From Okamejei kenojei (taxonomy: Eukaryota), in contig CM069141.1 of assembly GCA_035221665.1 (NCBI GenBank), forward strand, positions 36,766,001 to 36,830,000: 64,000 nucleotides of DNA, read 5' to 3'. Position 1 is the stretch's first letter. Every line of letters begins with the position of its first letter. Under the pieces are notes generated by a model. That model made no database searches. It was not told the DNA's origin and saw only the letters and a program-made list of their open reading frames with translations. Below, piece after piece: positions 3,292-56,760 of this stretch. A program made the translations under genes and the position numbers.

Positions 3292-3884
3292 AAAAGTGGT
3301 GAGATGAAGACAATATGTGTGAATTGTGAAGCTAGAGGAAGGAATATAGGTGGAAGGGGACAGCCAGAGAAAGGAATGTAGGTGGAAAGCAGGTTTGGAA
3401 AGTGAAGAGAAGGTAAACACAAGTAATTGGCACCATTCACAATCAGGGGGAGAGGAACGTGAACTATTATGAGATAGCAGAATGAGAAGGTATCAGAAAG
3501 CATTTAAAAACTGACATAGCGGTGAGTTTTTTTGAATATTTTGCCTAGAGCTGTTTAAGGGCAAAGTGGTCATATGTTCAAAACCAAATTGGTACTGTGA
3601 AGATAAACACAAATGCTTTCTTCAATTTTTAAATCATTTTTCAACTCATACCTGAAAATACAGTTAAAATACTCGAAAATAATACAAAACTGTATATTGA
3701 AAAACAGACATTTTTATAGGTTTGTTAGCATTTCCATCAGCACATAAGCCTGGCTAATGTCTCTCACTGACCTCAACTGGCCAAAATATGTTACTGCAAA
3801 TCTGAACAAAATAAGGTTAGTGAAAATGTTTTGAAAATATTCGTTTAGTTTTTAGTTTTGTGTTTAGGTTAGTTTCATTGTTGA

Positions 3885-5268: not shown

Positions 5269-5269
5269 A

Positions 5270-7995: not shown

Positions 7996-10900
7996 GCGGG
8001 ACAAATTTCAGCGCTGGAGTAAAATAAAAATCCACTTCTAATGCCGTCAATGCCGACAACGGGACGGATCTCCCGTACGGGACAAATAAAGGTAAGCCGT
8101 TTATTTTACATATAAACTTGCTTCTTAGGATTACCTTAATCCAAATGTTACTCCCGTTGCGAAAAGGTGATTTAGGCCCCATACGAACCGGCAGTGTTTT
8201 TCCTGACGATATGGGGTTTAAATTCACCGCACACCGCAAAGTTCCAATCCATCGCGTTCCACAAATCCCACTCGCAAGATGATTTAATTAGAAACATAGA
8301 AGCATAGAAATTAGGTGCAGGAGCAGGCCATTCGGCCCATCGAGCCTGCACCGCCATTCAATATGATCATGGCTGATCATCCAACTCAGTATCCTGTACC
8401 TGCTTTCTCTCCATACCCCCTGATCCCTTCAGCCACAAGGGCCACATCTAACTCCCTCTTAAATATGGCCAACGAACTGGCCTCAATTACCTTCTGTGGC
8501 AGAGAATTCCACAGATTCACCACTCTCTGTGTGAAAAACGATTTTCTCATTTGGCTCCTAAAAGACTTTCCCTTATCCTTAAACAGTGACCCCTTGTCCT
8601 GGACTTCCCCAACATCGGGAACAATCTTCCTGCATCTAGCCTGTCCAACCCTTTAAGAATTGTGTAAGTCTCTATGAGATCACCCCTCAATCTTCTAAAT
8701 TCCAGCGAGTACAAGCCAAGTCTATCCAGTCTTTCTTCATATGGAAGTCGTGCCATCCAGGAATCAGTCTGTGAACCTTCTCTGTACTCCCTCTATGGCA
8801 AGAATGTGCCCTCACCAAGACCCTGTACAACTGCAATAGAACCTCCCTGCTCTTGTACTCATCCTTTTGCTATGAATGCCAACATACCATTCGCTTTCTT
8901 CACAGCCTGCTGCACCTGCATGCTACTTTCAATGACTGGTGTACCATGACACCATGGTCTCGCTGCATCTCCCCGTTTTCCTAACCGGTCACCATTCAAA
9001 TAATATTGTGTACCTTCCTGTTTTTGCCACCAAAGTGAATAACCTCACATTATCCACATTATACTGCATCTGCCATGCATTTGCCCACTCACCCAGTCTA
9101 TCCAAGTCATCCTGCAGCCTCCTAGCATCCTCCTCACAGCTAACACTGCCTCCCAGCTTCGTGTCATCCGCAAACTTCGAGATGTTGCATTTAATTCCCT
9201 CGTCCAAATCATTAATGTAAATTGTAAATAGCTGGGGTCCCAGCACTGAGCCTTGCGGCACCCCACTAGTCACTGTCTGCCATCCTGAAAAGGACCCGTT
9301 CACTCCTACTCTTTGCTTCCTGTCTGCCAGCCAGTTCTCTATCCACATCAATACTGAACCACCAATACCGTGTGCTTTAAGTTTGTATACCAATCTCTTG
9401 TGTGGGACCTTGTCCAGATACAACACATCCACTGCTGCCGATGTTAGACTAACTGGTCTGTAATTCCCCGTTTTCTCTCTCCCTCCCTTTTTAAAAAGTG
9501 GGGTTACATTAGCTACCCTCCAATCCTCAGGAACTACTCCAGAATCTAAAGAGTTTTGAAAAATTATCACTAAGGCATTTGCTATTTCTGGGGCTACTTC
9601 CTTAAGTATCCTGGGACGCAGCCTATCTGGCCCTGGGGATTTATCGGCCTTTAATCCATTCAATTTACCCAACACCACTTTCCGGCTAACCTGGATTTCA
9701 CTCATTTCCTCCATCTCATTTAACCCGCAATCCCCTGCTATTTCCGGCAAATTATTTATGTCTTCCTTAGTGAAGACAGAACCAAAGTAGTTATTCAATT
9801 GGTCTGCCATGTCCTTGTTCCCATGATCAATTCACCCGATTCTGCCTGCAAGGGACCTACATTTGTTTTAACTAATCTTTTGCGCTTCACATATTGATAA
9901 AAACTTTTGCAGTCAGTTTTTATGATTCCTGCCAGTTTTCTTTCATACTCCATTTTCCCTTTTCTAATTAAGCCCTTTGTCCTCCTCTGTTGGTCTCTGA
10001 ATTTATCCCAGTCCCCGGTAGGCTGCTTTTTCTGGCTAATTTGTACGCTTCCATCTTTTTCTTTGATACTATCCCTGATTTCCCTCATTATCCACGGATA
10101 CGCCACCTTCCCTGATTTATTCTTTTGCCATACTGGGATGAACAATTGTTGTAGTTCATCCATGCAGTCTTTAAATGCCTTCCATTGCATATCCACCGTC
10201 AACCCTTCAAGAATCAATTGCCAGTCCATCTTGGCCAATTCATGTCTCATACCCTCAAAGTTACCTTTCTTTAAGTTCAGGACACGTGTTTCTGAATTAA
10301 CAATGTCACTCTCCATCCTAATGAAGAACTCAACCATATTATGGTCAACATCTTGCCCAAGGGGCCACGTACAACAAGGCTGCTAACTAACCCTTCCTCA
10401 TTACTCAATATCCAGTCTAGAATAGCCTGCTCCTCTCGTTGGGTTCCTCCACATGATGGTTTAGAAAACTATCCCCGCATACATTCCAAGAAATCCTCTT
10501 CCTCAGCACCCTGCCAATTTGATTCACCCAAAATCTATATGTAGATTGAAGTCACCCATTATAACGGTTTTACCTTCGTTGCACGCATTTCTAATTTTCC
10601 TGTTTGATGCCATCCCCAACTCCACTACTACTGTTAGGTGGCTGTACACAACACCCACTAGCGTTTTCTGCCCTTGGTGTTTCGCAGCTCCAACCCATAT
10701 CGATTCCACATCCTCCAACGCTAATGGTCATTCCTTTCTATTGCATTAATCTCCTCTCTAACCAGCAACGCTACCCCCACCTCCTTTTCCTCTCTGTCTT
10801 ATCCTTCCTGAATATTGAATATCCCTGGATGTTCAGCTCCCAGCCTTGGTCACCCTGGAGCCATGTCTCCGTTATCCCAACTATATCATAATTATTAATA

Positions 10901-11670
10901 GCTATCTGCACATTCAACTCATCCACCTTATTACGAATGCTCCTCGCATTGAGACACAAAGCATTTCAGGCTTGTTTTTACAACACTCTTGGCCCTTTTA
11001 CAATTATGTTGAAAAGTGGCCCTTTTAGATTTTTGCCCTGGATTTGTTTTCCTGCCACTTTTCACCTCGCTACCTATTGCTCCTATCCTCATTTTACACC
11101 CATCTGTCTCTCCGCTCACTAATTGGCCATTAATTTACAGGAATTAAACACTAAATTCCTTCCATTTGGCCTATAAATTCATGACATTGAGATTTAAAAA
11201 TCATGTTATATTGTGAATTCTTGTGTGAATGTTATTTGGACACTTAGGCAATTTAAAAATGTTAATCTTTACTTAAGAAATGGATAGATGTTTAGATCTA
11301 GTAATTGAATTTTGTAATTAGCTACAATCAGGTAACTAACTAATTATATGCTTTAATTTCAGGTCATCCAAGTAAGATTGCTTCATATTTGCTTCAGAAT
11401 GCTTCAAACTATATTTCAGTTCTCTTAATTTTTAAGAAAGTTATCAGCTTTTGACTGTCCTTGATCACAGCTTTTGTGTTAAGTCAATGGAAAAGCAATA
11501 GGGAACAAGATGCTAATTCCCAAGTATGAAAATGGCCCCATACCTTTTTAAATACTTTTTAAAAGATATGAAAGTGAATTAGGTGTCAAATTAAACTTCT
11601 TTTTATGCTTTATCTGATGGGATAAATTGCAGACTTGATTTTTTAAATATCAACAGTTTGTAACATTGCT
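7996..11670. mobile_element. Unclassified DNA-transposon-like repeat split by a CR1 insertion
   Basis: Segments 7996-8289 and 11120-11670 join across the duplicated TAATT; abrupt end ...TTTGTAACATTGCT. Family not assigned. Confidence 0.45.
8290..11119 (-). mobile_element. CR1 LINE ORF2 (APE endonuclease + RT), 5'-truncated, internally deleted
   Basis: CLNARSIRNK..VGITETWL, MGDFN, RT motifs [15 protein letters not shown]; (TTTCTATG)-type tail at 8290; candidate TSD TAATT at 8285-8289 and 11120-11124. Confidence 0.95.
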
Positions 11671-11698
11671 AGTATATGATGATATGATGACATTGCTG

Positions 11699-11921
11699 TG
11701 CCCCAAACATTATGGTGCCCTGAAGTGGGGGTACTATGTATAAACACTGCTGTAATTTCTACATGGTGAAACCAAAATGTCTAAAAATGGCCTTTATTAA
11801 AATCTGATAATGTGCACTTTAACCACAAGTGATTTTTTTTTCTATTACAAATCTCAAATTGTTGAGTATAGAGGCAAATAAATGATGGGTCTTTGTCCCA
11901 AACATTATGGAGGGCACTTGT
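11699..11921 (+). mobile_element. Tc1/mariner-like terminal IR/DR remnant
   Basis: Direct repeat CCCAAACATTATGG at both ends of about 220 bp, ending GAGGGCAC(T)TGTA, typical of a Tc1 IR/DR end next to TA. Confidence 0.65.
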
Positions 11922-12169
11922 AAGGGATCTTCGATCATGAGAGAAACTGCGCCTTGAAACTGAGTCAGGAAAAAGGAGGCATGAGCCAGGAAAAATGAGG
12001 CATGGGCCAGGTATGATCAGCTGGGATAAAGTGTATCCCAGGCCTGGAAGAGTTAAAGGGATTGAGGAGCCTACTAAAAAAGAAAAGCAAGAGAGCAAAA
12101 TGAGGGCAAGAGACAGCTCTGGGAGTTAAGATTAAAGATCATCCAAAATGTGTGCTTTTAGTTTGATGT

Positions 12170-12742
12170 AAAATTTATGCTTTAGCTTATCTTTAGTTTT
12201 TGTATTTGTGGGGGGTGGTGGAAACTTTTTTTAAATCTCTTTCCCCGACGGAGATGCGACCTTTTCCGTGTCGTATCTCCATCTGCACTGCGGCCAAACA
12301 TCGTGCAGTTGGTGGCCTCGTTTGGGACTTCAAGAGCTACAAAACCGTGGAGCCTGCGGATTTTAACATCTCCGAGCAGGCGATCCCTTTGGCAGGGGTT
12401 GGCCTTTGGTGCTCCAGCCTGCGGGAGCTGCAGACTTTAACATTGTTAAGCTCGCGGTCCCTGGTTAGGGACCGATTTCAGTAACTTCAAGCCGCAGGAA
12501 TTTTCGACTGCCCCGATGCGGGAGCTTATACCGCCCCAACGTGGGAGCTCGATCACCGGCTGCAGATGGTTCGACTTTATTGCCTTCCATCACAGTGGGG
12601 AAGGTGGAGAGTCGCTGTGGTGGATGTTTTATAACAATTTTTTATGTAGTTGTGTGCCTTGTTTTTTTAGTATGACAGTGGCAAACTGAATTCCTCTCAT
12701 GTTGCAAAATACTTGCCTAATAAATTACAATTATGATTATGA
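12170..12742 (+). mobile_element. Unclassified non-LTR retroposon 3' portion
   Basis: CpG-rich body with internal short repeats, ending AATAAA then an (ATTATG)n tail. Confidence 0.5.
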
Positions 12743-12768
12743 AAATGATTTTACATATATTTGTAAAT

Positions 12769-13619
12769 TGTTCTAAGCTTCCCCCGTCTAGTTTCAGTCA
12801 AAAACCACTGAATCAAACACTTGCGCGACTAATCTTTATTTTGACAAAACACAATTACAATTCAATTACTATACCTAACCACTGCGGGTTCAATCCTCAT
12901 ATCTGTCTGATCAAGCCCTCTAGGCCTCGCTCAAACAGAGACACTCCAGAAGGTCACACAGTCCCAAGCGTTCTCCCAGAAGATCGACACAGGACCTGAT
13001 GGCAGCGGACCTTTATAGGTCCCCGGACCTCGAGGGGCCAAACCACATGGGGGTGGTCTCTTTACAATCCAATTACAGATATCGATTAACCCCATAATTA
13101 ACAGACATTTCCCTAATCCAATATTACATCGTATTCAAACAGTGTTTCTCAGAGGAAGCAAACAACGCAACACGTACCCTGATATGCAAGAAAACCAGAC
13201 AAGGCTCAATACCTCATCCAATCAACATTCAGTAAAGTAAAGCTTTGCAACATTATTTACAAAGTGTATGTCTGGTTTGCAGTCATCCAATCCATTCTAT
13301 GCATTGTGCATCTAATTGACTGGGTCTGCAGAAGTTCCCATTCCCCTCCTGCAGCTTGGATCTAGGCTCTAGACAAACTGGCACCACTGCAGCTTGTCCC
13401 AGTTCCACAGAGAGCACTTTCAAATTGACCAAATATCCCAGCAGCCCTGAAGCCTTTACCCAGTTTTAGAGTCCTAGTCTCTCCAATCTGGCCAGGATTG
13501 ACATATTCACGAAGAAAGTGGAACTGAGAGACAATAGGGCACCTCAGAAACCAAGTCATTTATGTCTCGAGCTGCTGGAGATGGGCTAGGTCTTCAATTA
13601 ACATTCCTCCTCCGTTTTT
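12769..13619 (-). mobile_element. ERV/LTR-retrotransposon LTR with adjacent polypurine tract
   Basis: Minus strand: PPT AAAAACGGAGGAGGAA (13619-13604) directly before TG at 13603; TATAAA at about 13017; AATAAA at 12840-12835; ends ...AGAACA at 12769. Confidence 0.65.
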
Positions 13620-28944: not shown

Positions 28945-29352
28945 CCTATTGTAATGCGTATTGCGTGCGTTCGCATGATCTAGATCAGCGGGTTTGGAGA
29001 CATGACAGAAGGAACCCAGAGCAACTCGGGGGGCGGGGGGGGGGGGGGGAGACAGGGAATAGGAAACGAGCGGTGCTACAAGGTCTGATGGCAGCAGGCG
29101 GACCGAACACCAGAGGCGGGTGTAGGGTAGTCAGGGCGCAGAGAGCGCTGGTGTAGTTACCGGGCCGCGGTACGTGTAGTTACCGGGCCGCTGCGGGTCC
29201 GTCGGCGGCCTGAGGCCCGCGTTGTTTCCGACGGTTCAAGGCCCGGTGCAGAGGCAGAGGCCCGTTAACCATCGCTGCCCCGGGTGCGGCCAGGCCGAGC
29301 GGCCCGATGGGGAACACCGCGGGCCCGGGCGGGGCGTGCGGTCACCCCTCAC

Positions 29353-29472
29353 CTTCGTGTCGACATCGGCGAGGCAGTCTCTGCGGAACTCGTCGAACAG
29401 ACCGCGGTTCTTCAGATGATCCACGATCTTGGCGATGACGTTGGGGTCTTCTGGCGGCAGGTTTTTGGCCAT
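29353..29472 (-). CDS. BOD1: BOD1 (biorientation of chromosomes in cell division 1; COMPASS Shg1-like domain), coding exon 1
   Basis: Strong Kozak GCCATGG; encodes MAKNLPPEDPNVIAKIVDHLKNRGLFDEFRRDCLADVDTK, containing the BOD1-family signature GLFDxFRRDCLADVDTK; ends AAG|GTGAGG (phase 0); lies in a CpG-rich island. Confidence 0.95.
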
Positions 29473-33495: not shown

Positions 33496-33573
33496 CTGAG
33501 TAGGAAGAGAATAAAGATGTACATTAACCACAATACATTTCTTGGAAATTAATAACTTTTGCCACTTCCAATT

Positions 33574-35577
33574 AGAAACATAGAAACATAGAAAATAGGT
33601 GCAGGAGTAGGCCATTCAGCCCTTCTAGCCTGCACCGCCATTCAATATGATCATGGCTGATCATTATACTCAGTATTGTGTACCTGCCTTCTCTCCATAC
33701 TCCCTGATCCCTTTAGCCACAAGGGCCACATCTAACTCCTTCTTAAATATAGCCAATGAACTGGCCTCAACTACCTTCTGTGGCAGAGAATTCCAGAGAC
33801 TCAACACTCCCTGTGTGAAAAATGTTTTCCTCATCTTGGTCTTAAAGGAATTCCCCCTTATCCTTAAACTGTGACCCCTTGTTCTGGACCTTCCCAACAT
33901 CGGGAACAATCTTCCTACATCTAGCGTGTCCAACCCCTTAAGAATTTTGTAAGTTTCTATAAGATCCCCCCTCAATCTTCTAAATTCTAGCGAGTACAAG
34001 CCGAGTCTATCCAGTCTTTCCTCATATGAAAGCCCTGACATCCCACAAATCAGTCTGGCGAACCTTCTCTGTACACCCTCTATGGCAAGAATGTCTTTCC
34101 TCAGATTTGGAGACCAAAACTGTACGCAATACTCTTCTTCTTCTTCTTTCGTGTGGCGTGCACAGCCTAAAGTTGTTGGACAACTTGTTCTTTTTGATCT
34201 TCCGTTTGTGCATGTCGAGTTGATTGCATTAGTCGAAACAGGGCAGACCACATGAAGGTTGCAATCTTCAACCCCTACGCAATACTCCAGGTGTGGTCTC
34301 ACCAGAACCTTGTACAACTGCAGTAGAACCTCCCTGCTCCTATACTCAAATCCTTTTGCTATGAATGCTAACATACCATTCGCTTTCTTCACTGCCTGCT
34401 GCACCTGCATACCTACTTTCAATGACTGGTGTACCATGACACCCAGGTCTCGTTGTATCTCCCCTTTTCCTAATCAGCCACCATTCAGATAATAGTCTAC
34501 CCTCCTGTTTTTGCCACCAAAGTGGATAACCTCACATTTATCCACATTATACTGCATCTGCCATGCATTTGCCCACTCACCCAGCCTATCCAAGTCACCT
34601 AGCATCCACCTCACACCTAACACTGCCAGCTTCGTGTCATCCACAAACTTGGAGATGTTGCATTCAATTCCCTCGACCAAATCAGTAATATACATTGTAA
34701 ATAGCTGGGGTCCCAGCACTGAGCCTTGCAGTGCCACACTAGTCACTGCCTGCCGATCTGAAAAGGACCCGTTTACTCCTACCCTTTGCTTCCTGTCTGC
34801 CAGCCAGTTCTCAATCCACATCAATACTGAACCCCAAATACCGTGTGCTTTAAGTTTGTATACTAATCTCTTATGTGGGACCTTGTCGAAAGCCTTCTGA
34901 AAGTCCAGATATAACACATCCACTGGTTCTCCCTTAGTCACTCTACTAGTTACATCCTCGAAAAAGTCTATAAAATTCGTCAGACATGATTTACCTTTTG
35001 TAAATCCATGCTGACTTTGTCCAATGATTTCACCACTTTCCAAATGTGCTGCTATCCCATCTTTAATAACTGACTCTAGCAGTTTCCCCACTACCAATGT
35101 TAGACGAACTGGTCTGTAATTCCCCATTTTCTCTCTCCCTCCTTTTTTAAAAAGTGGGGTTACATTAGCTACCCTCCAATCCTCAGGAACTACTCCAGCA
35201 TCTAAAGAGTTTTGAAAAATTATCACTAATGCATCCACTATTTCTGTGGCTACTTCCTTGAGTATTCTGGGATGCAGCCTATCTGGCCCTGTCGATTTAT
35301 CGGCCTTTAATCCATTCAATTTACCCAACACCACTTCCCGGCTAACCTGGATTTCACTCAGTTCCTCCATCTTATTTGATTTTTTATGTCTTTCTTAGTA
35401 AAGACAGAACCAAAGTAGTTATTCAATTGGTCTGCCATGTCCTTGTTCCCCAAGATCAATTCACCTGTTTCTGATTGCAAGGGACCTACATTTGGTTTAA
35501 CTAATCTTTTTCTCTTCACATATCTATAAAAACTTTTGCAGTCAGTTTTTATGTTCCCTGCCAGTTTTCTTTCATAA
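33574..35577 (-). mobile_element. CR1 LINE, 5'-truncated (same family as 1922, 8290, 53095)
   Basis: RT ORF 34474-35370 and C-terminal ORF 33670-34437; (TTTCTATG)n tail. Confidence 0.95.
34135..34275 (-). mobile_element. 141-bp (GAA)n-tailed retroposon nested in the CR1, 12-bp TSD
   Basis: TACGCAATACTC at 34123-34134 and 34276-34287; a second truncated copy lies at about 38835-38899. Confidence 0.85.
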
Positions 35578-36408
35578 TTAAAATAAATGAGTTAAATGTG
35601 TTCCAAATTGTTATGAATCCAAGTCAAATCTGCATTTCTTTCCTACACATTTCCCTACTCCTACCTTGCCGATCATAGCTTTTGAGATGTTTTTGTATTC
35701 TTTCCATTCCTGACATTGAAGTCACATAGTAGGATCAGTTCATCTCCCTCAGGGTCACAGGCAAGGATTGTTTCAAGATCAAAATAGAAATCTAGATTGG
35801 CTGCACCAATAACTTCCATGATTGAATTACATCTGCTGATGACTGTAGCTTATTGACTCATGAAATACTCATCTACACCCCAGGGCAAGTTGCTGAAGAT
35901 AGTATTCCCTTTCCAGCTTGCCTTCAAGAAGAAGTTAACCAATTTCCATGATTTGTGCTATCGCCATTTCTATCTCATTATATCTCACACAGAATGGCAA
36001 CATTAATGTCAGAGCATCTGTGTTCTGGGGAAATGGCAGCAGAATAATGTTCAGGGCTGTCACTGCTGGGATTGCCTATGGGGACCTTGACAGTTCAGGA
36101 GCAAAACTCTTGATTTAATGTGATGGTCATTAAACACTTCCTACCAAACAGGGTTGACAGAGTAAGGTTTTACATCTGTAGCCAGGAGTTCAAGACAGTT
36201 GGAAGCGAGATTCTGCTGTATGGAAGTCAAACACAAATGTAGATGCTTATCATGCAAGTGCACACACCACACACTAACATGCGCACTGACAGTTGCATAC
36301 ATCTCTATTACTAAAAGTCTGATCTTGACTGCTTTTGGATCACTGTGGTGTAATTTCCAAGAGAACGCCGCCACCTAAGGCCGTCATTTTTGGTCAGCTC
36401 GCTCAGAG

Positions 36409-36445
<37 letters not shown>

Positions 36446-36689
36446 CCTTCCTGCACTAGAGGATTTTTCCCATCAATAAAAAATCAGAGAGATATTAATT
36501 TATTTTTTTAATCGCCATTCGCTCTGCTGCCCCTGCTGGAGGGAGGGTGAGGGACTATAAAACCAGGACATTGTGTGCCTCACTCAGTCTCTGCAAGATG
36601 GAGAAAGCCAGAGGGTCACGTCTCTCTGAGCTCTGAATAGCACTGAATACATGTCTACTCAACTGTGAGTGCCCTTAATGTGGTTCGAT

Positions 36690-37048
36690 AAATGCTTGCA
36701 AAAAGTGTCTATTGGTTCTAAAATGCTTTCAAAAAGTGTCTATTGGTTCTAAAATGCTTGCAAAAAGTGTCTATTGGTTCTAAAATGCTTGGAAAAAGTG
36801 TCTATTGGTTCTAAAATGCTTGCAGAAAGTGTCTGTTGGTTCTAACATGCTTGCAAAAAGTGTCTCTATTGGTTCTAAAATGCTTGCAAAAAGTGTCTCT
36901 ATTGGTTCTAAAATGCTTGCAAAAAGTGTCTCTATTGGTTCTAAAATGCTTGCAAAGAGTGTCTCTATTGGTTCTAAAATGTTTGCAAAAAGTGTCTGTA
37001 TTTGTTCTAAAATGCTTGCAAAAAGTGTCTCAATTAGTTCTAAAATGC
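36690..37048 (+). repeat. 31-33 bp minisatellite, about 11 copies
   Basis: Unit AAATGCTTGCAAAAAGTGTCT(CT)ATTGGTTCTA. Confidence 0.95.
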
Positions 37049-37141
37049 TGCCTGGCCAGAGTGACTGAGCTGCCTGGCCAGAGTGACTGAGCTGCCTGGC
37101 CAGAGTGACTGAGCTGCCTGGTCTGAGTGACTGAGCTGCCA
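37047..37141 (+). repeat. 22-bp tandem repeat, about 4 copies
   Basis: Unit CTGCCTGGCCAGAGTGACTGAG. Confidence 0.9.
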
Positions 37142-38894
37142 GCCTAAGAATCCATTCGGCCCACAATGTCCATACTAGCCCTGTGGAAACCAGTCCCTTT
37201 GACCCACACACACATACTAGCACTCCAGAAAGTCTCCCTCCCCCTCCCTACTGGCCAGCAATATTGGAATTGGTGGAGAGGTGGAATATTGCATTGGGGG
37301 ACCAGCCGTCCCATGTGAAGCTGTGACCTAATGGGTCCCACTTAGTCTAGTTCCATTATAAGCTTCTCATCCTATCTCCCTTATCCAACTCCTGTTGTTC
37401 TCTCCATCCTTAATCCTCTTCACCTCCCATCCTCAGTGTCTCCACCATCTTCTTCACATCATCTTTTGAATAGATAACAATAGCCCTGTAGGGATCACAA
37501 AAGTTGTAAGCTGCCTAAGAAGAAGCCAATGGAAGAGCACACTGTCTTTAGATAATCCTGATTCATTCTTGGTTCATTTCACAATGCTGCCTGCAGCAAG
37601 ACAAGACATTGTGGTTAATGTCCTTTTCACCTGCTGCAATGTCTTACCCTGATTGGTATTCTCCTCAAATAGCAATGTGAAGCTTCTTGCCAACAGAAAA
37701 TAGCTGGAGTGTGGCAGCACAAAGCAGAGAGTGTTTGCTGTCAGACAGATAGTAAGTGAGGTTCAGCTATAGCACAGACAGGCTTATGTGTGTGGGAGAG
37801 GAGAGCCATGGCTCAGCCAGAATTAATACAGGCACTCACAAAAGTACAGACACATGGTACAATCTTGGACTGGAAGAGAACTATCAAATATTACCAGGAA
37901 GAGACTAGCTGTGGCACAGCATGGAATGAAACAGACAGAGCTGAACCCAAGTACGCAGCACAATCTGGATCTGAGGGAGAACTTAACTCTCATAAATATG
38001 AGGACTGAGAATCGGCAACGTCTTCTGAAGGTGAGAGAGAAAAAGAGGGACAGGGGGAGAAAGGAAGTGAGAGAAAGAGGAGGAGGAGGAGGAGGAGGAG
38101 GAGGAGGAGGAGGAGGAGGAAGAGGGACAGAGGGTAAGCGGAGAGCGCCTACATGAGCTCTCTGAAGGATGAAGCCTAGGAAAGCCTAGGTATTCCTTGA
38201 GATACTCCAAGATGGTGCCAGAGCATGGCGACATTCCCTGCTGGTCCCAGAGGAGGACCAACCATCATCCAATATAATCGGTTTACTCTCAAATCTCTTT
38301 TCTCCCTGTAAATCCAGCACCATTCACAATGCTGAGAACTATATTCTGCACTCTTATCTTATTTGCTCTATCTATTGTATTTGAGGTTGACTTGATTGTT
38401 TTTTTATGCATAGTATTGTCTGATTTAGTTGGACAGAACACAGAATAAAGTTTTCATTGTACCTCAGTACATGTGACAATAATAAACCTAAACCGAATCA
38501 CCTTGCTTAAAAAAAGAAACTTTCATTTGCATCAATGGAATTAGTAAAACATTGCCATTGGGTTAATATATTCCAAAGCAGAATGAAATAGATTTCTGAA
38601 ATTGTCATAGCTCTTGTACCTATATAGTTTAATAATGTTAATGCACCTCAAAGTAATTTATTGAATATTTAACAAATATTGTTCCTTTTCCTTTATGTGT
38701 AGGATGCCAGAATAATTGTTAGCAGTCATAACAAAATTAAACAATTGAATAATACCATGTGCTCCAATTTTCCACACTAATCTCTTGTGTGGGACCATGT
38801 CAAAAGCTTTTTGAAAGTCCAGATACACCACATCCTCTCTTCTTCTTGCGTATGACATGTATAGCCTAAAGTTGTAGGACAACTTGTTATATTT

Positions 38895-39494
38895 GATCCC
38901 TGTCACATGGGAGGCCTGGTCCTCCAACGCAACCCGTTCCTCAATGCAATATTCCACCACTCACCCATAGCCCCCACGGGAGGCCAGGTCCCCCAATGCA
39001 ACCCGTTCCCCAATGCAATATTACACCACTCACCCATAGCCCCCACGGGAGGCCTGGTCCTCCAACGCAACCCATTCCCCACCACAATATTCCACCACTC
39101 ACCCATAGCCGACAACTGTGCTGGGGCTGCTCATTCCGCCTTATTCATCGTCCCTCATTTTTAAACTTGAAATAAAATACAATTGTACTTGCTGGCTAGA
39201 AGAACTCAGTGTTCTGTGACTTAAAAAAAAACATTTGAGTCACCTAGCAGGACTCAGTGTACTTGGATAGCAACAAAGTTGCGAGCAGGGCTACAATCCC
39301 ATTGTGACATCACAGCTGTAAGCACAGGAAATAAGCAGTTATTTTTTCCAAGTTTTTGAACATTTTGATTAATAACAAGAAATAATGCATGAAATTTTGA
39401 GACGGCGGTTTGGACTCCACAGGATATATATCTATCGGAATATGTAAAACTTTTACCGTTAGCACGTTTTTTCGAGAAGATGAGAACACACACA

Positions 39495-39525
<31 letters not shown>

Positions 39526-40685
39526 AACAGTTCCCCAACGCAATTCCCCAACGCAATATTCCACCACTCAACTGTTTCCCCCAACACAACCCATTCCCCC
39601 AAAGCAATATTCCACCACTCACCCATAGCCTCTAACTGCGCAGGCGTGACTCATTTCCCTCATCCCCCAGCACTCCCCCCCCCTTCCTCTTCATGTGTGG
39701 GAGGGGAGGAGGGGTGTGGGGGTGTGTGTGTGCAGGGGGGTGGAGGTAGGGCAGAGAGCATGGTGTGGGGGGAGAAGGGGGCGGGGGTGTGTGGGGAGGG
39801 GGTGTGCAGGAGGGGTGTGTGGGGGAGGGGGCTGTGGGGAATGGGGTGTGGGAGAGGGGGGATGTGGGAGAGGATGGAGGGGGTGTTGGGGAGGGGGGTG
39901 GTGGATGGGGGTGGAGGGGGGTGGGGGGTGGAGGAGGGGGGTGTGTGGGAGGGCGGTTGTGGAGGACAGAGGGTGTTTTGTGGGGGAGGGGGCATGGGGA
40001 AGGGGGTGGAGAGTGTGGGGGAAGGGGGGAAGAGGGGTGTGGGGAAGGGCGGATTGTGGGGAGGGGGGTGTGGGGAAGGGGGGGTGGGGTTGGGGGAAGG
40101 GAGTGTGGAGGGGGGTTTCTGGAAGGGGAGTTTGGGGAAGGGGACATGATGGGGGGGATGGGGGAGGGGGATGTGGGAAGGGGGGGTTGCAGCAGATGCA
40201 GCTCACCTTCTGCTCAGCCCGCACCTTCAGCTATCGGCCTCACGCCTCACGCAGCAGCTCCCGGTCCCACTCCAACTTCACTCAGAGGCTTCCGGTTCAA
40301 CTTAACAGCGCCTGGCTCGTCGTGCTCGTCGCCACAGAAGCAGCCCGCACGCTGCTCTCTGCCCGCATGGCTTGTGGACTCAATCAGTGGGGCTCGTGGA
40401 CTCAGCCCCGTCTCTGGGGTTTTATTCTCCTCACTCCGGTGATTGATAGTGGGTGCTCGAAGTTGCGTTACCTTCATGGTGATTGACAGGCGAGAAGACC
40501 AATCTGCTAATCTCACTTTCGTAATATTCCACCGATCTGAACAAAACGTGGTGCGCTTGGAGCAGAGGACAACGATGTGTAAGGTGGCCAAAAAATCCTA
40601 GCGATATAGGGTACCGGTTTTGTGTAAATTTAAAAACAGCGCAAACCAGAAGAGGACACGATGAAAGTTTTAGTAATAGTATAGA
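38895..40685 (-). mobile_element. Composite Helitron-like element (two tandem units, 3' tip missing)
   Basis: Minus-strand 5' end TCTATACTATTACTAAAAC at 40685 beside a (GATA)n run; subterminal CCCCAACGCAATATTCCACCACTCACCCATA motif at 38909-39110 (69 bp x3) and 39530-39630, shared with the ends at 37250-37300 and 42370-42430. Confidence 0.65.
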
Positions 40686-40869
40686 TAGATAGAAGATAGA
40701 TAGGTAGATAGGTAGATAGATAGGGATAAGATGAATTAATGCAGAATGGAGATGATAGGAAATGGGTCATTGTTATAGTTCATGTGAATTTTCAGAAAGT
40801 ATATTTTAATGTGGCTTTCACTGGAATGTTAAAATTCATGGCCAAAAGGCTTCTTATTATTAAAAATGG

Positions 40870-41273
40870 ACAAATTGCTGGAGTAACTCTGCAGGATAGG
40901 CAGCATCTCTAGAGAAAATGGATAAATGATGTTTTGACTGAGAGTGAAAAAGAGGTTGGGGGGGGGGGGGTTGGGAGAAGGAGGAGACAGATTACCTCAA
41001 GCAGGGTGGTTGCCTGATAAGCCAACTTTTGTCTAGAGACAGTGTGATCATAAAAGGGATACATAGTTAAAAACTATGGAACTGGTTAACTGACTTTTAG
41101 TGGTGGAAGGGGGTAATAGAAGTTACCAAAACTAGAAAACCATACCCCTGGGTTGCAAGCTGCCGAAGTGAAATATGAGGTCCTAATTTGCATGTGGCCT
41201 CATCCTGTCAATGGAGGAAGCCCAGGACAGAAAGGTTAGTCCCATGATTACATTGCAACTTCTCCTGCATCTC
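40870..41273 (-). mobile_element. Penelope 3' fragment next to the gap
   Basis: GCTGGAGTAACTCTGCAGG terminal motif; LSVLGFLH..LIFHFGSLQPRG remnant. Confidence 0.7.
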
Positions 41274-41455
41274 NNNNNNNNNNNNNNNNNNNNNNNNNNN
41301 NNNNNNNNNNNNNNNNNNNNNNNNNNNNNNNNNNNNNNNNNNNNNNNNNNNNNNNNNNNNNNNNNNNNNNNNNNNNNNNNNNNNNNNNNNNNNNNNNNNN
41401 NNNNNNNNNNNNNNNNNNNNNNNNNNNNNNNNNNNNNNNNNNNNNNNNNNNNNNN
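41274..41455. other. Assembly gap (182 N)
   Basis: Run of n characters. Confidence 1.
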
Positions 41456-42181
41456 TATTTTCTTCCAAATGCTAGGCCACAGCTTCCCATTTTCACACAT
41501 TCTACTCACATTTTTCCCGTCGAGGCAATAAATATCTTCCCGTCACATTCCCACCTATATTTCCAAACTTTGAAAATCGTTTAAAGATTAAAAAACAGCC
41601 CTGAAAACTCACCCATTTCGGAAAAATAACCCTGAGTTGACGTCGCAAGGCAGGACGGGACACCCCGGGAAGGAAGGGCACTCCAGTGCTCGTGTGGCGG
41701 TGGCTGCCGGCGACCATCGCCTGACAGGGAGGGTGGTGCTGGAACAGGAGTGAGGGCTGAGCCCGGGGCTTGGGATGGGGCCATGACCGAGGCCGAGAAA
41801 GAAGCCGCCGCTGGTACCAAGGACGGGCCTGGGTCCGTGGTCAGGGAGGAGCCTGGAGATGAAGTCATAGCCTGCACTATAGCCCAGGCGGCGGCCAAGC
41901 TGATGACTGGAGTCTACAGCCAGGGCCAGGCCAAGTACGAGAACCAGGCCGAGTTCCGGGCCCTGGAGCTGCTCTACAACCTGGGTAGGTCCTGGGGCAG
42001 GGAATGGGTGTGAGGGGAGGTGGATGAGGGAAATGAGGAGTGAGATGGGGTGGGGAGTGGGGTGGTGGTGGGAGATGGCCCCTTCCTATCTATCCTAACT
42101 CCAACCCTCTCTTCCCCCTTCCCTCTCTACACCCCTCCCTCTCTACACCCCTCCCTCCCTCTCTCCCTTCCCTCCCCTCTA

Positions 42182-42233
<52 letters not shown>

Positions 42234-42455
42234 TGTCTGTCTCCTTCCCTCTCACCCTCTCCCTCTCTACCAGCCCTCCAAGTGATTGAAGAGAGAGGGT
42301 GAAGAGGAGGGTGTGCTGGGCGATGAGGAGAAATGAGCCGCGCCTGCACAGTTGGGGCTATGCGCGAGTGATGCAATATTGCGTTGGGGGAACGGATTGC
42401 GTTGGGGTTATGGGTGAGTGGTGGAATCTTGGGTTGGGGTCTACACTTGGTCTAG
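41456..42455 (+). mobile_element. Helitron-like element (5' end in the gap) carrying an exon-like cargo
   Basis: Ends GCAATATTGCGTTGGGGG..GGGTGAGTGGTGGAAT..CACTTGGTCTAG|T, homologous to the 3' end at 37350. Confidence 0.7.
41899..41984 (+). pseudogene. Captured SAC3D1-like (SAC3/GANP family) exon fragment
   Basis: LMTGVYSQGQAKYENQAEFRALELLYNL-G followed by donor G|GTAGGT; resembles the vertebrate SAC3D1 segment Y..G.yPnQ.eFqaL.LLYNLG; high GC3 codon bias. Confidence 0.55.
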
Positions 42456-42639
42456 TCATCAATATAAATTCATTGGTCATTCATCAAATTCTTGTTTTTA
42501 TTTTTCCTATGTAAAACAACTTTGCTGCACTTCAAGAAATTTCCGTTTCAGAGGGGCACAACGAAGGAATATGCAAGTTATTTCTTCATTTACACTTGCC
42601 CTTTAATGGAAGCACTAGGAACTGATGGAATCTTCTGTA

Positions 42640-45178: not shown

Positions 45179-45472
45179 TACTACTGCTTACCACACAGTG
45201 CCCTCCCCAGACTAATGATTTGAGGCCCACAGGAGCCGTTGGAAGTGAAGGAGGGGGAGGAGCGACACCCGACCGGTAAGGTTTAAAATCAAGCGCGGGG
45301 CTTGTTTTTACCTAAATCCATAACATTCCATTCAGAGAAGTTTTTTTTTGTTGAGGAAGCCGCCAATTGGTGGGAAGTGGACTAGGGTAAGCAGCTGATT
45401 GGCAGTCAGATTCCAGCAGTTTGTTGTGTACTTTGTATTGTGTTGATATTGTATCCTGTGTAAGGGGGGAGT

Positions 45473-46399
45473 ATGAAGGCCAGGGCAGTGTACTGTTCTG
45501 GATGTCAGATGTGGGAGGTCAGGGAATCTGATAGCCCTCCAGACATCCACATCTGCGCCAGGTGTGTCGAGATGGGGCTCCTAAAGGATTGTGTTAGGAA
45601 CCTGGAGCAGCAGCTCGATGATCTCCGTCTGGTCAGGGAGAGTGAGGAGGTCATAGAGAGGAGTTACAGGGAGGCAGTCACTCCCAGACCACAGGAGGCA
45701 GACAAGTGGGTCACGGTTAGGAAGGGCAAGAGGCAGGGGCTAGAGAGTACCCCTGTGACTGTACAACTGGAAAATAGGTACTCGGGTTTGAGTACAATTG
45801 GAGGGGACAGTCTACCTGGGGGCAGCAACACCGGCCGGGTCTCCAGCACAGAGATCGGCCCTGATGCTCAGAAGGGTAGCACAAAGAGGAGGACAATTGT
45901 AATAGGGGACTCTATAGTTAGGGGGTCGGATGGGCGATTCTGTGGACGCAGTCGGGAAACCCGGATGGTAGTTTGCCTCCCTGGTGCCAAGGTCTCGCAC
46001 GTGTCGGAACGTGTCCAAAAGATTCTGAAAAGGGAGGGAGAGGAGCCTGCTGTTGTGGTACACATAGGTACCAATGACATAGGCAGAAAAAGAGATGAGG
46101 TCCTGAAGGGAGAATTTAGGGAGTTGGGGGGAAAGTTAAGGAGAAGGACCAAAAGGGTAACGATTTCAGGATTACTGCCTGTGCCGCGTGACAGTGAAAG
46201 TAGGAATGGAATGAGGTGGAGGATAAATGCGTGGCTGAGGGACTGGTGCAGTGGGCAGGGATTCAAGTTTCTTGATCACTGGGACCTCTTTTGGGGAAGG
46301 CATGATCTGTACAAAAAGGACGGGTTGCACTTGAACCCGAGGGGGACCAATATCCTGGCAGGGAGATTTGCAAAGGCTACTGGGGAAACTTTAAACTAG
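45473..46399 (+). CDS. CR1 ORF1p: N-terminal Cys zinc finger, coiled coil, SGNH/GDSL esterase-like domain
   Basis: 308 aa open; CSGC..CARC; VIGDSIVRG, HIGTNDIG, DGLHLN motifs. Confidence 0.9.
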   Translation: MKARAVYCSGCQMWEVRESDSPPDIHICARCVEMGLLKDCVRNLEQQLDDLRLVRESEEVIERSYREAVTPRPQEADKWVTVRKGKRQGLESTPVTVQLENRYSGLSTIGGDSLPGGSNTGRVSSTEIGPDAQKGSTKRRTIVIGDSIVRGSDGRFCGRSRETRMVVCLPGAKVSHVSERVQKILKREGEEPAVVVHIGTNDIGRKRDEVLKGEFRELGGKLRRRTKRVTISGLLPVPRDSESRNGMRWRINAWLRDWCSGQGFKFLDHWDLFWGRHDLYKKDGLHLNPRGTNILAGRFAKATGETLN

Positions 46400-52514: not shown

Positions 52515-55500
52515 TTAGTCGTGGACTCGTAGCGCCATACAGCAAGGAAACAGGATCCCGGCCCAATTAATCTATACCAAGATGCCCTATCTCAGCTTGC
52601 CCCATATCCCTATAAACTTTCTATCCATGTACCTGTCCAAGTTTTTATTCAATGCTGTCTGTACTTGCCTCAAAGTGTGAAAAAGTTGCCCCTCAATTCA
52701 TATTAAATCCGTCCCCCACTTTAAACCCACTTCCCCATCTCTGGGTAAAATACGCTGTGCATTCACTTTATCAATTCCCCTCATGATTTTATACACCTCT
52801 GTAAGATCTTCCCTTAGCCTCCTGCGTTCCGTAGCATTAAGTCCAATGCTTACCCAACGTCTCCCTATATCTCAGACCCTTGAGTCTTTGCAACATACTC
52901 GTAAATCTTCTCTGCACTCTTTCCAGTTTAATGTCATTCTTCCCATAAGAGGGTAACCAAAAATGAACACAATGCTCCAAATGCAGCCTCGTCAGTGTCA
53001 TGTACAACTGTAACAAAATGTCCCAACATTTATATTCAATACCCTGACTCATGGAGGCCAATGTATAGACTGCCTTCTTTACCATATCTACCTGCATAAT
53101 TGTATAAGGAGGAAGAGTGTTGTAAAAACAAGCCTGAAGGCTTTGTGTCTCAATGCAAGGAGCATTCGTAATAAGGTGGATGAGTTGAATGTGCAGATAG
53201 CTATTAATGATGATGCTATAGTTGGGATCACGGAGACATGGCTCCAGGGGGACCAAGACTGGGAGCTGAATATCCAGGGATATTCAATATTCAAGAGGGA
53301 TAGACAGAAAGGAAGGGGAGGTGGGGTAGTGTTGCTGGTGAGAGAGGAGATTAATGCAATAGAAAGGAAGGAGATTAGCTTGGAGGATGTGGAATCAATA
53401 TGGGTAGAGCTGCGAAATTCTAAGGGGCAGAAAACACTAGTGGGAGTTGTGTACAGGCCACCTAACAGTAGTAGTGGAGTTGGGGATGGCATCAAACAGG
53501 AAATTAAAAATGCGTGCAACAAGGGTAAAACAGTTATAATGGGTGACTTCAATCTACATATAGATTGGGTTAATCAAATGTGCAGGGGTGCTGAGGAAGA
53601 GTATGCGGGATAGTTTTCTAAACCAACAAGTAGAGGAACCAACGAGAGAGCAGGCTATTTCTAGACTGGGTATTGAGTAATGAGGAAGGGTTAGTTAGCA
53701 GTCTTGTTGTGCGGGGCCCCTTGGGCAAGAGTGACCATAATATGGTTGAGTTCTTCATTAGGATGGAGAGTGACATAATTAAGTCAGAAACAAGGGTTCT
53801 GAACTTAAACAAAGGTAACTTTGAAGGTATGAGAAGTGAATTGGCCAAGATAGACTAGCAAGTGATTCTTAAAGGGTTGACAGTGGATGTGCAATGGAAG
53901 GTATTTAAAGACTGCATGGATGAACTACAACAATTGTTCATCCCAGTTTGGCAAAAGAATAAATCAGGGCAGGTAGTGCATCCATGGATAACAAGGGAAA
54001 TCAGGGATAGTATAAAAACAAAAGATGAAGCATACAAATTAGCCAGAAAAGTCAGCCTACCAGAGGACTGGGAGAAATTCAGAGTTCAGCAGAGGAGAAC
54101 AAAGGGCATAATTAGGAAAGGGGAAAATAGATTATGAATGAAAACTGTCAGGGAACATAAAAACTGACTGCAAAAGTTTTTATAGATATGTGAAGAGAAA
54201 GAGATTAGTTAAAACAAAAGTAGGTCCCTTGCAGTCAGAAACAGGTGAATTGATCATGGGGAACAAGGACATGGCAGACCAATTGAATAACTACTTTGGT
54301 TCTGTCTTCACTAAGGAAGACAAATAATCTGCCGGAAATAGCAGGGGACCGGGGGTCAAATAAGATGGAGGAACTGAGTGAAATCCAGGTTAGCCGAGAA
54401 GTGGTGTTGGGTAAATTGAATGGATTAAAGGCCGATAAATCCCCAGGGCCAGATAGTCTGCATCCCAGAGTACTCAAGGAAGTAGCCACAGAAATAGTGG
54501 ATGCATTAGTGATAATTTTTCAAAACTCCTTAGATTCTGGAGTAGTTCCTGAGGATTGGAGGGTAGCTAATGTAACCCCACTTTTTAAAAAAGGAGGGAG
54601 AGAGAAAGCGGGTAATTTCAGACCAGTTAGTCTAACATCGGTAGTGGGGAAACTGCTAGAGTCAGTTATTAAAGATGGCAGAGCAGCACATTTGGAAAGT
54701 GGTGAAATCATTAGACAAAGTCAGATGGATTTACGAAAGTTAAATCATGTTTGATGAATCTTATAGAATTTTTTGAGGATGTAACTAGCAGAGTGGATAA
54801 GGGAGAACCAGTGGATGTGTTATATCTAGAATTTCAGAAGGCTTTCGACAAGGTTCAATAAGAGATTAGTATACAAACTTAAAGCACACGGTATTGGGGG
54901 TTCAGTATTGATGTGGATAGAGAACTGGCTGGCAGACAGGAAGCAAAGTGTAGGAGTAAACGGGTCCTTTTCAGAATGGCAGGCAGTGACTAGTGGGGTA
55001 CCGCAAGGCTCAGTGCTGGGACCCCAGCTATTTACAATATATATTAATGATTTGGACAAGGGAATTGAATGCAACATCTCCAGGTTTGCGATGACACGAA
55101 TCTGGGGGGTAGTGTTAGGTGTGAGGAGGATGCTTGGAGGCTGCAAGGTGACTTGGATAGGCTGGGTGAGTGGGAAAATGCATGGCAGATGCAGTATAAT
55201 GTGGATAAATGCGAGGTTATCCACTTTGGTGGCAAAAATAGGAGGGTAGACTATTATCTTAATGGTGGCAAATTAGGAAAAGGGGAGATGCAACGAGACC
55301 TGGGTGTCATGGTACACCAATCATTGAAAGTAGGCATGCAGGTGCAGCAGGCAGTGAAGAAAGCAAACGGTATGTTAGCATTCATAGCAAAAGGATTTGA
55401 GTATAGGAGCAGGGAGGTTCTACTGCAGTTGTACAAGGTTTTGGTGAGACCACACCTGGAGTATTGCGTACCATTTTGGTCCCCAAATCTGAGAAAAGAC

Positions 55501-56760
55501 ATTCTTGCCATAGAAGGGATACAGCAAGCTGATTCCTGGGATGTCAGGACTTTCATATGAGAAAAGACTGGATAAACTTGGCTTGTACTCGCTAGAATTT
55601 AGAAGACTGAGGGGGAATCTTATAGAAACTTACAAAATTCTTAAGGGGTTGGATAGGCTAGATGCAGGAAGATTGTTCCTGATGTTGGCGAGGTCCAGAA
55701 CAAGGGGTCACAGTCTAAGGATAAGGGGGAATTCCTTTAGGACCGAGATGAGGAAAACATTTTTCACACAGAGAGTGGTGAGTCTCTGGAATTATCTGCC
55801 ACAGAAGGTAGTTGAGGCCAGTTAATTGGCTATATTTAAGAGGGAGTTAGATGTGGCCCTTGTGGCTAAAGGGATCAGGGGGTATGGAGAGAAGGCAGGT
55901 ACAGGATACTGAGTTGGATGATCAGCCATGATCATATTGAATGGCGGTGTAGGCTCGAAGGGCCGAATGGCCTACTCCTGCACCTATTTTCTATGTTTCT
56001 ATGTTTACCTGTGATGCAATTTTTAGTGAACTATGTACGTGTAGTCCTGGACCCTCTGCTCTACAACACTACCCAGGACCCTACCATATACTGTGAATAT
56101 CTTCCTCTGGGTCGGCTTCCCAAAATGCAACACCTCACACTTATCTGCCTTAAAGACTATTAAACATTTCTCAACCCACTTGCTTTATTGATCAAGATCC
56201 TGCTGCAACTTTTAATAACCATCTTCACCTTCTATGGTACTACCTACTTTAGTTCATCTGCAAACTTACTAATCATGCCTTGCATGCTCTCAGCTAAATC
56301 GTTGATACAAACCACAACCAGCAATGGGTCCAGCATTAAACCCTGAGGCATACGACTCGTCACAAACCTCCAGCCTGAAAAACAGCTTTCTACCATCACC
56401 CTCTGCTTCCGACCATGAAGCCAATTCTGTATCCAGACAGCTAGCTCTCCCTGGATCCCATGCAATCTAATGTTCCTGAACAGCCTTCCATGCAGAAATG
56501 TATCAAAGGCCTTGGCGAAGTCCATATAGAAAACCTCTGCAGCCTTGCCCTCGTCAACCTTCTTGGTGTGGATGGCTTGATTGTAATCAGGTATAGTCTT
56601 TCCATTGACTGGATAACAGTGAACAACAATAGTTATTCTTTGTACCTTGGTACATGTGACAATAAACAAAACAAAATAAAATTCATGAGACACGATCTCA
56701 CATGTACAAAGCCATGCTGACTATCCCTATCCAGCCCGTTTTTCTAAATGCATTTCCCCT
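52515..56760 (-). mobile_element. Older minus-strand CR1 (52515-53094 and 56006-56760) split by a younger CR1
   Basis: MDFAKAFD, PQGLMLDP, FADELK on the right; LYMTLTRLHLEHCVHFW on the left. Confidence 0.85.
53095..56005 (+). mobile_element. CR1 LINE ORF2 (APE + RT), 5'-truncated, 6-bp TSD
   Basis: CLNARSIRNK through RT and the (TTTCTATG)n tail; TACCTG at 53089-53094 and 56006-56011. Confidence 0.95.

What the first reader, a model, noticed from the sequence alone, without database searches (positions are those of the whole stretch)
41456..42455. Helitron-like element carrying a SAC3D1-like exon with its splice donor
Seen: the element ends CACTTGGTCTAG|T like the element at 36302-37350. It contains a GC3-rich frame ending ..YSQGQAKYENQAEFRALELLYNLG, followed immediately by G|GTAGGT and intron-like sequence. 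Known: LLYNLG marks an exon end in vertebrate SAC3D1 as I recall it, and Helitrons capture genomic DNA including intron ends (maize, bats). Inference: this is DNA-level gene-fragment capture by a cartilaginous-fish Helitron. The upstream in-frame part (MTEAEKEAAAG..) does not look like SAC3D1, so the open frame 41750-41984 may be a chimeric, splice-competent cargo exon.
Basis: partly seen in the sequence, partly recalled or inferred. Interest (0 to 1): 0.75.

Follow-up and report, generated by a model that had tools for sequence, protein, structure and literature searches.

The report
Skate Helitron multiplying a SAC3D1 fragment
A jumping-DNA element, likely a Helitron, carries a shortened piece of the skate SAC3D1 gene ending at a probable splice site and is repeated likely hundreds of times in two species, a kind of gene-fragment copying known from bats and frogs that our searches did not find reported for cartilaginous fish.

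Summary
Observation confirmed; interpretation mostly right, one part wrong. 41912-41984 matches skate SAC3D1 (20 of 25 residues; sole hit of 69 candidates, E 0.008). The upstream frame (41714-41914) is not foreign: it matches a low-complexity insert seen only in skate SAC3D1. The cargo is therefore one SAC3D1 stretch with at least about 80 core codons deleted, not a two-gene chimera. About 2,500 contigs per genome run lie on the 645-base stretch in two species, so this is a high-copy family (likely hundreds). The contigs' majority letters turn all five differing residues back to the skate ones, so LLYNLG and the ATG of MTEAEKE are mutations of this copy. Homology stops at G|GTAGGT, a moderate donor; the parental intron and splicing were not shown. 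Helitron status rests on CTAG|T and a subterminal module shared with neighbouring elements, one with TC...CTAG at A|T. This copy has no 3' hairpin, and its 5' end probably lies in the gap. Closest known case: bat HelibatN3-NUBPL. New member of a known kind.

The parts
41270..41273 (+). TCTC after an A, directly before the gap; possible first bases of the element's 5' end (speculative)
   Evidence: Same first letters as A|TCTCTATTACTAAAA at 36302; only 5 letters, noticed after the fact
41274..41455 (.). 182-N assembly gap, likely holding the element's 5' terminus
   Evidence: one contig each in X20 and X21 runs on to the left of 41467 (table 7)
41456..41700 (+). High-copy left internal segment of the element; origin (element or SAC3D1 upstream DNA) not determined
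   Evidence: Summed contig depth up to 23,401 (X1) and 26,211 (X6) at 41500-41521; no significant match to SAC3D1 residues 1-76
41714..41914 (+). Decayed copy of the skate-specific low-complexity insert of SAC3D1
   Evidence: Aligns to Rhinoraja 72-124 (score 93) and Amblyraja 105-180 (score 96), 0 of 1000 shuffles each; not significant for 8 non-skate orthologues; insert absent from non-skates
41912..41914 (+). Inferred deletion junction: one Val codon (GTC) fits both the end of the insert and the start of the distal piece; at least about 80 core codons missing
   Evidence: 13 of 32 listed contig pieces bridge it with 31 or more letters on each side
41912..41984 (+). SAC3D1 coding piece (Rhinoraja P0003 residues 262-286), inferred 3' end of an exon
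   Evidence: 20 of 25 identical to Rhinoraja, 17 of 25 to Amblyraja; majority contig letters restore the 5 differing residues; GC3 1.00
41985..41990 (+). GTAGGT, probable phase-1 splice donor where SAC3D1 homology stops
   Evidence: The orthologues go on with S-D-Q/A/K or S-V-K, the window with R-S-W; 6 of 9 consensus positions
41991..42090 (+). G-rich post-donor DNA carried with the cargo; 41999-42037 resembles the start of the subterminal module of the neighbouring element
   Evidence: 5 of 32 listed pieces bridge the donor; an exact 16-mer is shared with 39650-39665 minus, 0 of 100 shuffles reach 2 matches; 77% over 39 nt
42090..42285 (+). C/T-rich low-complexity tract with (CT)n
42306..42439 (+). 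Subterminal module shared with neighbouring Helitron-like elements
   Evidence: 81.6% over 136 bp to 39546-39680 minus, E 1e-29; shorter matches to 38924-39144 minus and 37276-37301
42444..42455 (+). 3' terminus CACTTGGTCTAG followed by T; no hairpin in this copy
36302..37350 (+). Reference Helitron-like element with both ends: A|TC...CTAG|T, degenerate hairpin at 37325-37337, internal minisatellites, no SAC3D1 cargo
38900..40688 (-). Related compound Helitron-like element (ends approximate): TATTACTAAAA start motif, CpG-rich block ending at AAG|GTGAGC (40207), C-rich tract, same subterminal module; no CTAG end found

Best explanation
This is a decaying copy of a high-copy skate repeat family, likely a non-autonomous Helitron, that carries a piece of the host SAC3D1 gene, likely captured as genomic DNA up to and just past an exon's splice donor. 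Inferred order of events: (1) in a skate ancestor an element took up SAC3D1 coding DNA, from the skate-specific insert to the donor plus some downstream bases; (2) at least about 80 codons of the conserved core were lost, probably at a short microhomology (one Val codon fits both sides), before most of the amplification; (3) an autonomous RepHel partner, not seen here, would have copied the element to hundreds of sites; (4) copies have since decayed, largely by CpG transitions and further deletions. This copy is most likely inert: its ATG arose by mutation, it has no 3' hairpin, and it points away from the nearest recognised gene.
For: Shown: SAC3D1 match; both cargo halves are skate-type, including a two-residue insertion in the YSQG region that other chondrichthyans lack; the core (about 105-259) and residues 285-444 of P0001 have no credible match in the 64 kb; 2,567 (X1) and 2,479 (X6) contigs laid on 645 bases, most at 80-95% identity, with summed depth 4,669-6,151 and 7,654-12,857 over 41918-41983 against median 6.8 and 7.5 for the listed long pieces; the joined form across 41912 is present in pieces from all 4 runs (13 of 32 listed); of 24 listed majority-letter sites in 41713-41978, 11 are CpG transitions in this copy, and 16 of 21 affected codons change the residue; CTAG|T end and subterminal module shared with a TC...CTAG element at A|T. 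Known: Helitrons start TC, end hairpin plus CTRR and insert at A|T (PMC11417382, passages); HelibatN3 amplified a NUBPL first exon and partial intron to about 1,000 copies (PMC4224331, passages).
Against: The 5' end was not seen (gap). The last 30 bases do not fold (0.0 kcal/mol), and the reference element's hairpin is only 4 bp. The linkage of cargo to the CTAG end is seen only in this one copy, because reads were laid on 41456-42100 only. No RepHel was detected among the window frames scanned against Pfam (not all frames were scanned). The donor is only 6 of 9 consensus, and part of the 'intron' resembles element DNA. Summed contig depth is not a copy number by the tool's own note. The repeat register of the insert is ambiguous, so the deletion could be about 80 or about 137 codons.
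Confidence: 0.72

Rival explanations
1. The SAC3D1-derived repeat is real and high-copy but was spread by another vehicle (a TIR DNA transposon, or LINE-driven retroposition of an unspliced RNA), and the Helitron-like 3' module is a separate, adjacent or nested insertion.
Against: Post-donor DNA shares a 16-mer and a 39-nt match with the subterminal module of the neighbouring element. That neighbour has the same order of parts. None of the 25 longest of 101 inverted pairs joins this element's two sides. No poly-A tail and no exon-exon junction.
Confidence: 0.16
2. One reading: a chimeric cargo exon made of a SAC3D1 exon end and an unrelated upstream coding piece that starts at MTEAEKE.
For: The upstream part is low-complexity and has no Pfam hit; it does not match 8 non-skate orthologues.
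Against: It matches both skate proteins tested beyond all 1000 composition-keeping shuffles; majority contig letters move it closer to the skate insert and remove the ATG; a loose-end consensus in X6 before 41734 translates by eye to the VPRA motif that precedes the insert in skates.
Confidence: 0.04
3. This copy is an exapted, spliced exon or promoter-exon that feeds a host transcript.
For: 125-codon open frame, CpG-rich left part (observed/expected 0.6-1.0 at 41501-41900), intact GT; HelibatN3 donors act as exon traps (PMC4778049, passages).
Against: Changes relative to the majority letters look neutral (16 of 21 codons change residue); the ATG arose by mutation; the nearest recognised first exon (29351-29472) is on the other strand and runs away from the element.
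Confidence: 0.05
4. The segment is the real SAC3D1 gene, or a low-copy segmental duplicate, broken by the assembly gap.
For: It sits next to an N gap; Rhinoraja has SAC3D1-like models on two contigs.
Against: The deletion lies inside continuous sequence 450 bp from the gap and is shared by contigs of both species; no other part of SAC3D1 is in the window; thousands of contigs, most at 80-95% identity, lie on it.
Confidence: 0.02

Closest known systems
HelibatN3 of vespertilionid bats (NUBPL capture; PMC4224331 and PMC4778049, passages read)
   Same: Non-autonomous element with host exon, splice donor and downstream bases, amplified to about a thousand copies; TC/CTAG family ends.
   Different: HelibatN3 keeps the promoter, 5' UTR and six codons, and was shown to trap exons. 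Here the cargo is about 90 internal codons with a large deletion, no SAC3D1 promoter or start was detected, and no splicing was shown.
Heli1Xen1 of Xenopus laevis (PMC12001565, passages read)
   Same: Vertebrate Helitron carrying host coding fragments, mostly from the 5' part of genes.
   Different: There 19 fragments lie in 64 insertions (armc5.L copied 17 times); here one fragment appears at likely hundreds of copies and is shared by two species.
Canonical Helitron (HLE1) non-autonomous elements (PMC11417382, passages read)
   Same: CTAG 3' end followed by T; a relative in the window has TC...CTAG at A|T with a degenerate hairpin.
   Different: This copy has no hairpin, and its 5' end is not visible.
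Skate SAC3D1 (XP_078252027.1, XP_078280094.1 Rhinoraja; XP_032902980.1 Amblyraja; XP_055514366.1 Leucoraja)
   Same: Source gene: insert-type repeats and the YSQG...LLYDLG segment.
   Different: The window copy lacks the N-terminal 70 residues, the core and everything after residue 286 (P0003 numbering), so it cannot encode a SAC3 domain.

Membership tests
Helitron (HLE1), non-autonomous | 3' terminal CTRR | tested here: met
   CTAG at 42452-42455, the same 12-mer but one letter as the end of 36302-37350
Helitron (HLE1), non-autonomous | 5' terminal TC | tested here: inconclusive
   The 5' end probably lies in the gap; A|TCTC precedes the gap but is only 5 letters. Met for the relative at 36302.
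Helitron (HLE1), non-autonomous | Insertion between A and T without target duplication | tested here: inconclusive
   T follows CTAG; left flank uncertain; no empty site found in the window. Met for 36302-37350.
Helitron (HLE1), non-autonomous | Short hairpin about 10 nt before the 3' end | tested here: not met
   The last 30 nt fold at 0.0 kcal/mol in this copy; the relative has a 4-bp stem at -2.6. Loss in a decayed copy is plausible, and bat elements lacking the palindrome are described (PMC4778049), so this copy is filed as Helitron-like rather than as a proven member.
Helitron (HLE1), non-autonomous | Interspersed multi-copy family | tested here: met
   2,567 and 2,479 contigs laid in two species; dispersion over chromosomes itself was not seen
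Helitron (HLE1), non-autonomous | Autonomous RepHel partner with matching ends | not testable with these tools
   No genome is held for this window
DNA-level host gene capture | Cargo homologous to a host gene | tested here: met
DNA-level host gene capture | Exon end followed by the parental intron, not by the next exon | tested here: inconclusive
Processed pseudogene (retrocopy) | Exon-exon junction and poly-A tail | tested here: not met
   No continuation into residues 287 onward and no poly-A in 41985-42460
Functional SAC3/GANP family protein | Complete SAC3_GANP domain | tested here: not met
   Only profile positions 151-179 of 289 match, at 13-15 bits against a cut-off of 27

The most novel reading that the evidence does not exclude
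Skate Helitrons repeatedly picked up CpG-rich exon-plus-donor modules (SAC3D1 here, an unidentified one in the neighbouring element) and scattered hundreds to about a thousand portable splice donors per genome, some now spliced into skate transcripts: an independent, probably old parallel to the bat HelibatN3 burst that also preserves an ancestral skate SAC3D1 allele.
Probability: 0.2. Interest if true: 0.75.

Novelty: new member of a known kind. Interest (0 to 1): 0.5.

Why it matters
Helitron gene-fragment capture in vertebrates is documented mainly in vesper bats and Xenopus, and six literature searches listed no paper whose title or abstract start describes it in skates or links SAC3D1 to a transposon. 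A coding fragment amplified to likely hundreds of copies would add a third vertebrate lineage and a datable marker for skate phylogeny: the cargo combines motifs now seen separately in Rhinoraja and in Amblyraja/Leucoraja. It would also allow a direct test of whether captured donors are spliced or whether the repeat affects silencing of the parent gene. In practice these copies can confuse SAC3D1 annotation and read mapping in skates. The mechanism itself is not new.

Tried and rejected
No whole genome is held, so copies could not be counted or dated. The 79-aa frame found nothing among longer proteins (185 candidates), among 1.84e9 representatives at E 0.001 or in the ESM Atlas. The 125-aa and 26-aa readings found nothing in the PDB at E 10, although human SAC3D1 is in it, so these blanks reflect query length. 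A frameshift-aware alignment of 41560-41730 to SAC3D1 residues 1-76 was not above shuffles (33-54 of 60 reached the score); eye-catching resemblances there were rejected. A 21-nt subterminal pattern had 0 matches in metagenome and viral contigs. A contig loose-end motif from left of 41467 had 0 matches in the window. No empty site was found. No RNA holder was listed; X20 and X21 were marked 'probably DNA', and none of the 15 shown of 99 joints starts at 41984, so expression is untested. The second cargo (40207-40480 minus) had no Pfam hit in three frames and no PDB hit in the one frame searched. Earlier scan findings: none by place, by sequence or by the first word search, none for SAC3D1; the 8 shown of 25 for Helitron capture appear to be bacterial insertion-sequence cases and do not bear on this. 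Isoform look-ups gave no intron-retaining model.

Full report
What is there. The window is repeat-rich vertebrate DNA with reverse-transcriptase LINE pieces and one recognised first exon at 29351-29472 on the minus strand (Pfam COMPASS-Shg1, E 1.8e-6; the name BOD1/BOD1L1 is recalled). The finding starts at the right edge of a 182-N gap. CACTTRGTCTAGT occurs only at 37339 and 42444, more than any of 100 shuffles gives.

The cargo is skate SAC3D1. Pfam's only hit for the frame is SAC3_GANP, weak and confined to the last 25 or so codons. A search with residues 78-117 of the frame returned one protein of 69 candidates: SAC3D1-like of Rhinoraja longicauda, E 7.7e-3. With 14 homologues in hand (12 sequences aligned), 41912-41986 is 20 of 25 identical to Rhinoraja and 17 of 25 to Amblyraja without gaps. 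It shares a two-residue insertion that the other chondrichthyans lack.

The upstream frame is SAC3D1 too. Skate SAC3D1 proteins carry a long low-complexity insert after VVPRA that rays, sharks and frogs lack. The frame 41714-41914 aligns to it with scores 93 (Rhinoraja) and 96 (Amblyraja); 0 of 1000 composition-keeping shuffles reach either, and none of 8 non-skate orthologues is matched significantly (best 70 of 1000). In Amblyraja numbering the upstream match ends at residue 180 and the downstream one begins at 262-263. The Val codon at 41912-41914 fits both sides, so about 81 core codons are missing; on the Rhinoraja register it would be about 137. Neither the core nor the C-terminal part has a credible match anywhere in the window, and residues 1-76 are not detectable upstream. 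The chimera reading is therefore rejected.

It is a high-copy family. Of 24 listed runs, 20 hold part of the stretch; four were laid on 41456-42100 at 80% likeness. The genomic runs of organisms A (X1) and B (X6) gave 2,567 and 2,479 contigs, most at 80-95% identity. Summed depth over the SAC3D1 end is 4,669-6,151 and 7,654-12,857, against medians of 6.8 and 7.5 for the 8 long pieces listed per run, ratios of about 690-900 and 1,000-1,700. The tool states that summed depth is no copy number, and overlapping contigs inflate it, so I conclude only 'likely hundreds'. Thirteen of the 32 listed pieces (5,437 more not shown) bridge the deletion junction and 5 bridge the donor. The deleted form and the post-donor DNA therefore belong to the family, not to this copy alone. 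Other joints show further deletions in other copies.

This copy is decayed. Among the 40 best-supported difference rows (268 not shown), 24 fall in 41713-41978. The five inside the distal piece (41928, 41933, 41958, 41967, 41978; 84-99% of depth) change exactly the five residues that differ from Rhinoraja back to the Rhinoraja residues. Eleven of the 24 window letters are CpG transitions of the majority letter, and 16 of 21 affected codons change residue, as neutral decay would give. The ATG at 41783 is GTG in 73-77% of depth. Upstream majority letters give motifs found in Amblyraja and Leucoraja (RDEPGDEV), while the distal piece equals the Rhinoraja form. That suggests capture from an ancestral skate allele (inference).

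The donor. Homology ends at the first base of the Gly codon, followed by GTAGGT; the orthologues continue with Ser. That fits a phase-1 intron and excludes a processed retrocopy. However, the site matches 6 of 9 consensus positions, while 301 sites in the window match 7 or more. The parental DNA could not be fetched, and the exon boundary is recalled. In addition, 41999-42037 resembles the start of the subterminal module of the neighbouring element (exact 16-mer), so part of the 'intron' may be element DNA, or the module may itself derive from the intron. Splicing was not observed.

The vehicle. 42306-42439 is 81.6% identical over 136 bp to 39546-39680 (minus) and shares shorter motifs with 37276-37301. 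The element at 36302-37350 has A|TC, CTAG|T and a degenerate hairpin, the canonical Helitron marks (PMC11417382, passages). The minus-strand element starting near 40688 shares its start motif and has the same order as the finding: CpG-rich block, GT donor (8 of 9), C-rich tract, subterminal module. Against this, the finding's own last 30 bases form no hairpin, its 5' end is hidden, and cargo-to-terminus linkage was seen in one copy only. I put a Helitron vehicle at about 0.75, and the SAC3D1 origin with high copy number at about 0.95.

How it likely works. Capture of genomic SAC3D1 DNA, internal deletion, amplification in trans by an unseen RepHel element, then decay. Helraiser experiments show that bypass of the 3' end captures flanking DNA, more often without the hairpin (PMC4778049, passages). 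Here the cargo sits inside a 3' end shared with a cargo-free relative, so either a second element supplied that end or the DNA was taken up internally; this cannot be decided here. The copy points away from the nearest recognised gene, 12 kb off, and so cannot splice into it.

Comparison and verdict. The closest case is bat HelibatN3-NUBPL (about 1,000 copies, exon trapping shown; PMC4224331, PMC4778049, passages), then Xenopus Heli1Xen1 (19 fragments in 64 insertions; PMC12001565, passages). Searches for Helitron with skate, Leucoraja, little skate, chondrichthyan or elasmobranch, and for SAC3D1 with transposon, gave 0, 2, 1, 12, 9 and 0 papers (listings only). A skate genome paper has no occurrence of 'helitron' in its main text (PMC12361510, passages), and PMC2997563 mentions no skate or shark (passages). 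The library lacks most subscription papers, and repeat databases and supplements were not seen. Verdict: a real, high-copy, probably Helitron-borne capture of a host coding fragment; a new member of a known kind; interest 0.5.

Noticed in passing
window 29351-29472 (-): First coding exon of a COMPASS-Shg1-domain gene (BOD1/BOD1L1 type, name recalled) with a GT donor and a GC-rich upstream region; Pfam E 1.8e-6.
   Followed up: partly
window 40207-40480 (-): CpG-rich block in the neighbouring Helitron-like element, ending at AAG|GTGAGC (8 of 9 donor consensus); one frame looks like a decayed exon with stops at CpG-type codons. A possible second captured exon; no Pfam or PDB hit.
   Followed up: partly
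window 41269-41273: The last bases before the gap are A|TCTC, the same start as the element at 36302, so the gap may hold the element's high-copy 5' end.
   Followed up: partly
window 41638-41645, 39311 (-), 6971 (-): A TGACGTC / GATGTCACAAT motif recurs in these repeats; family contigs read TGACGTCA, a CRE-like palindrome (label recalled).
   Followed up: no
window 42340 and 29711: A GCGCCTGCRC motif (NRF1-like, label recalled) occurs in the subterminal module and upstream of the host first exon.
   Followed up: no
window 36681-37140 and 38909-39110: Minisatellites inside the Helitron-like elements: 33-bp x 11.5, 22-bp x 4.3, and a 69-bp x 2.9 array built from the subterminal module.
   Followed up: no
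proteins P0001-P0004, P0017-P0020: Skate SAC3D1 has a variable-length tandem peptide insert (total 382-462 aa) absent from rays, sharks and frogs; the Amblyraja 'isoforms' X1-X4 differ only in repeat number.
   Followed up: partly
window 45464-46396 (+): 311-codon frame with a GDSL/SGNH esterase domain upstream of RT pieces, as in CR1-type LINE ORF1 (family label recalled).
   Followed up: no
window 1916-3292, 8286-11008, 33570-35578, 53095-56006: Four overlapping LINE fragments 87-93% identical to each other.
   Followed up: no
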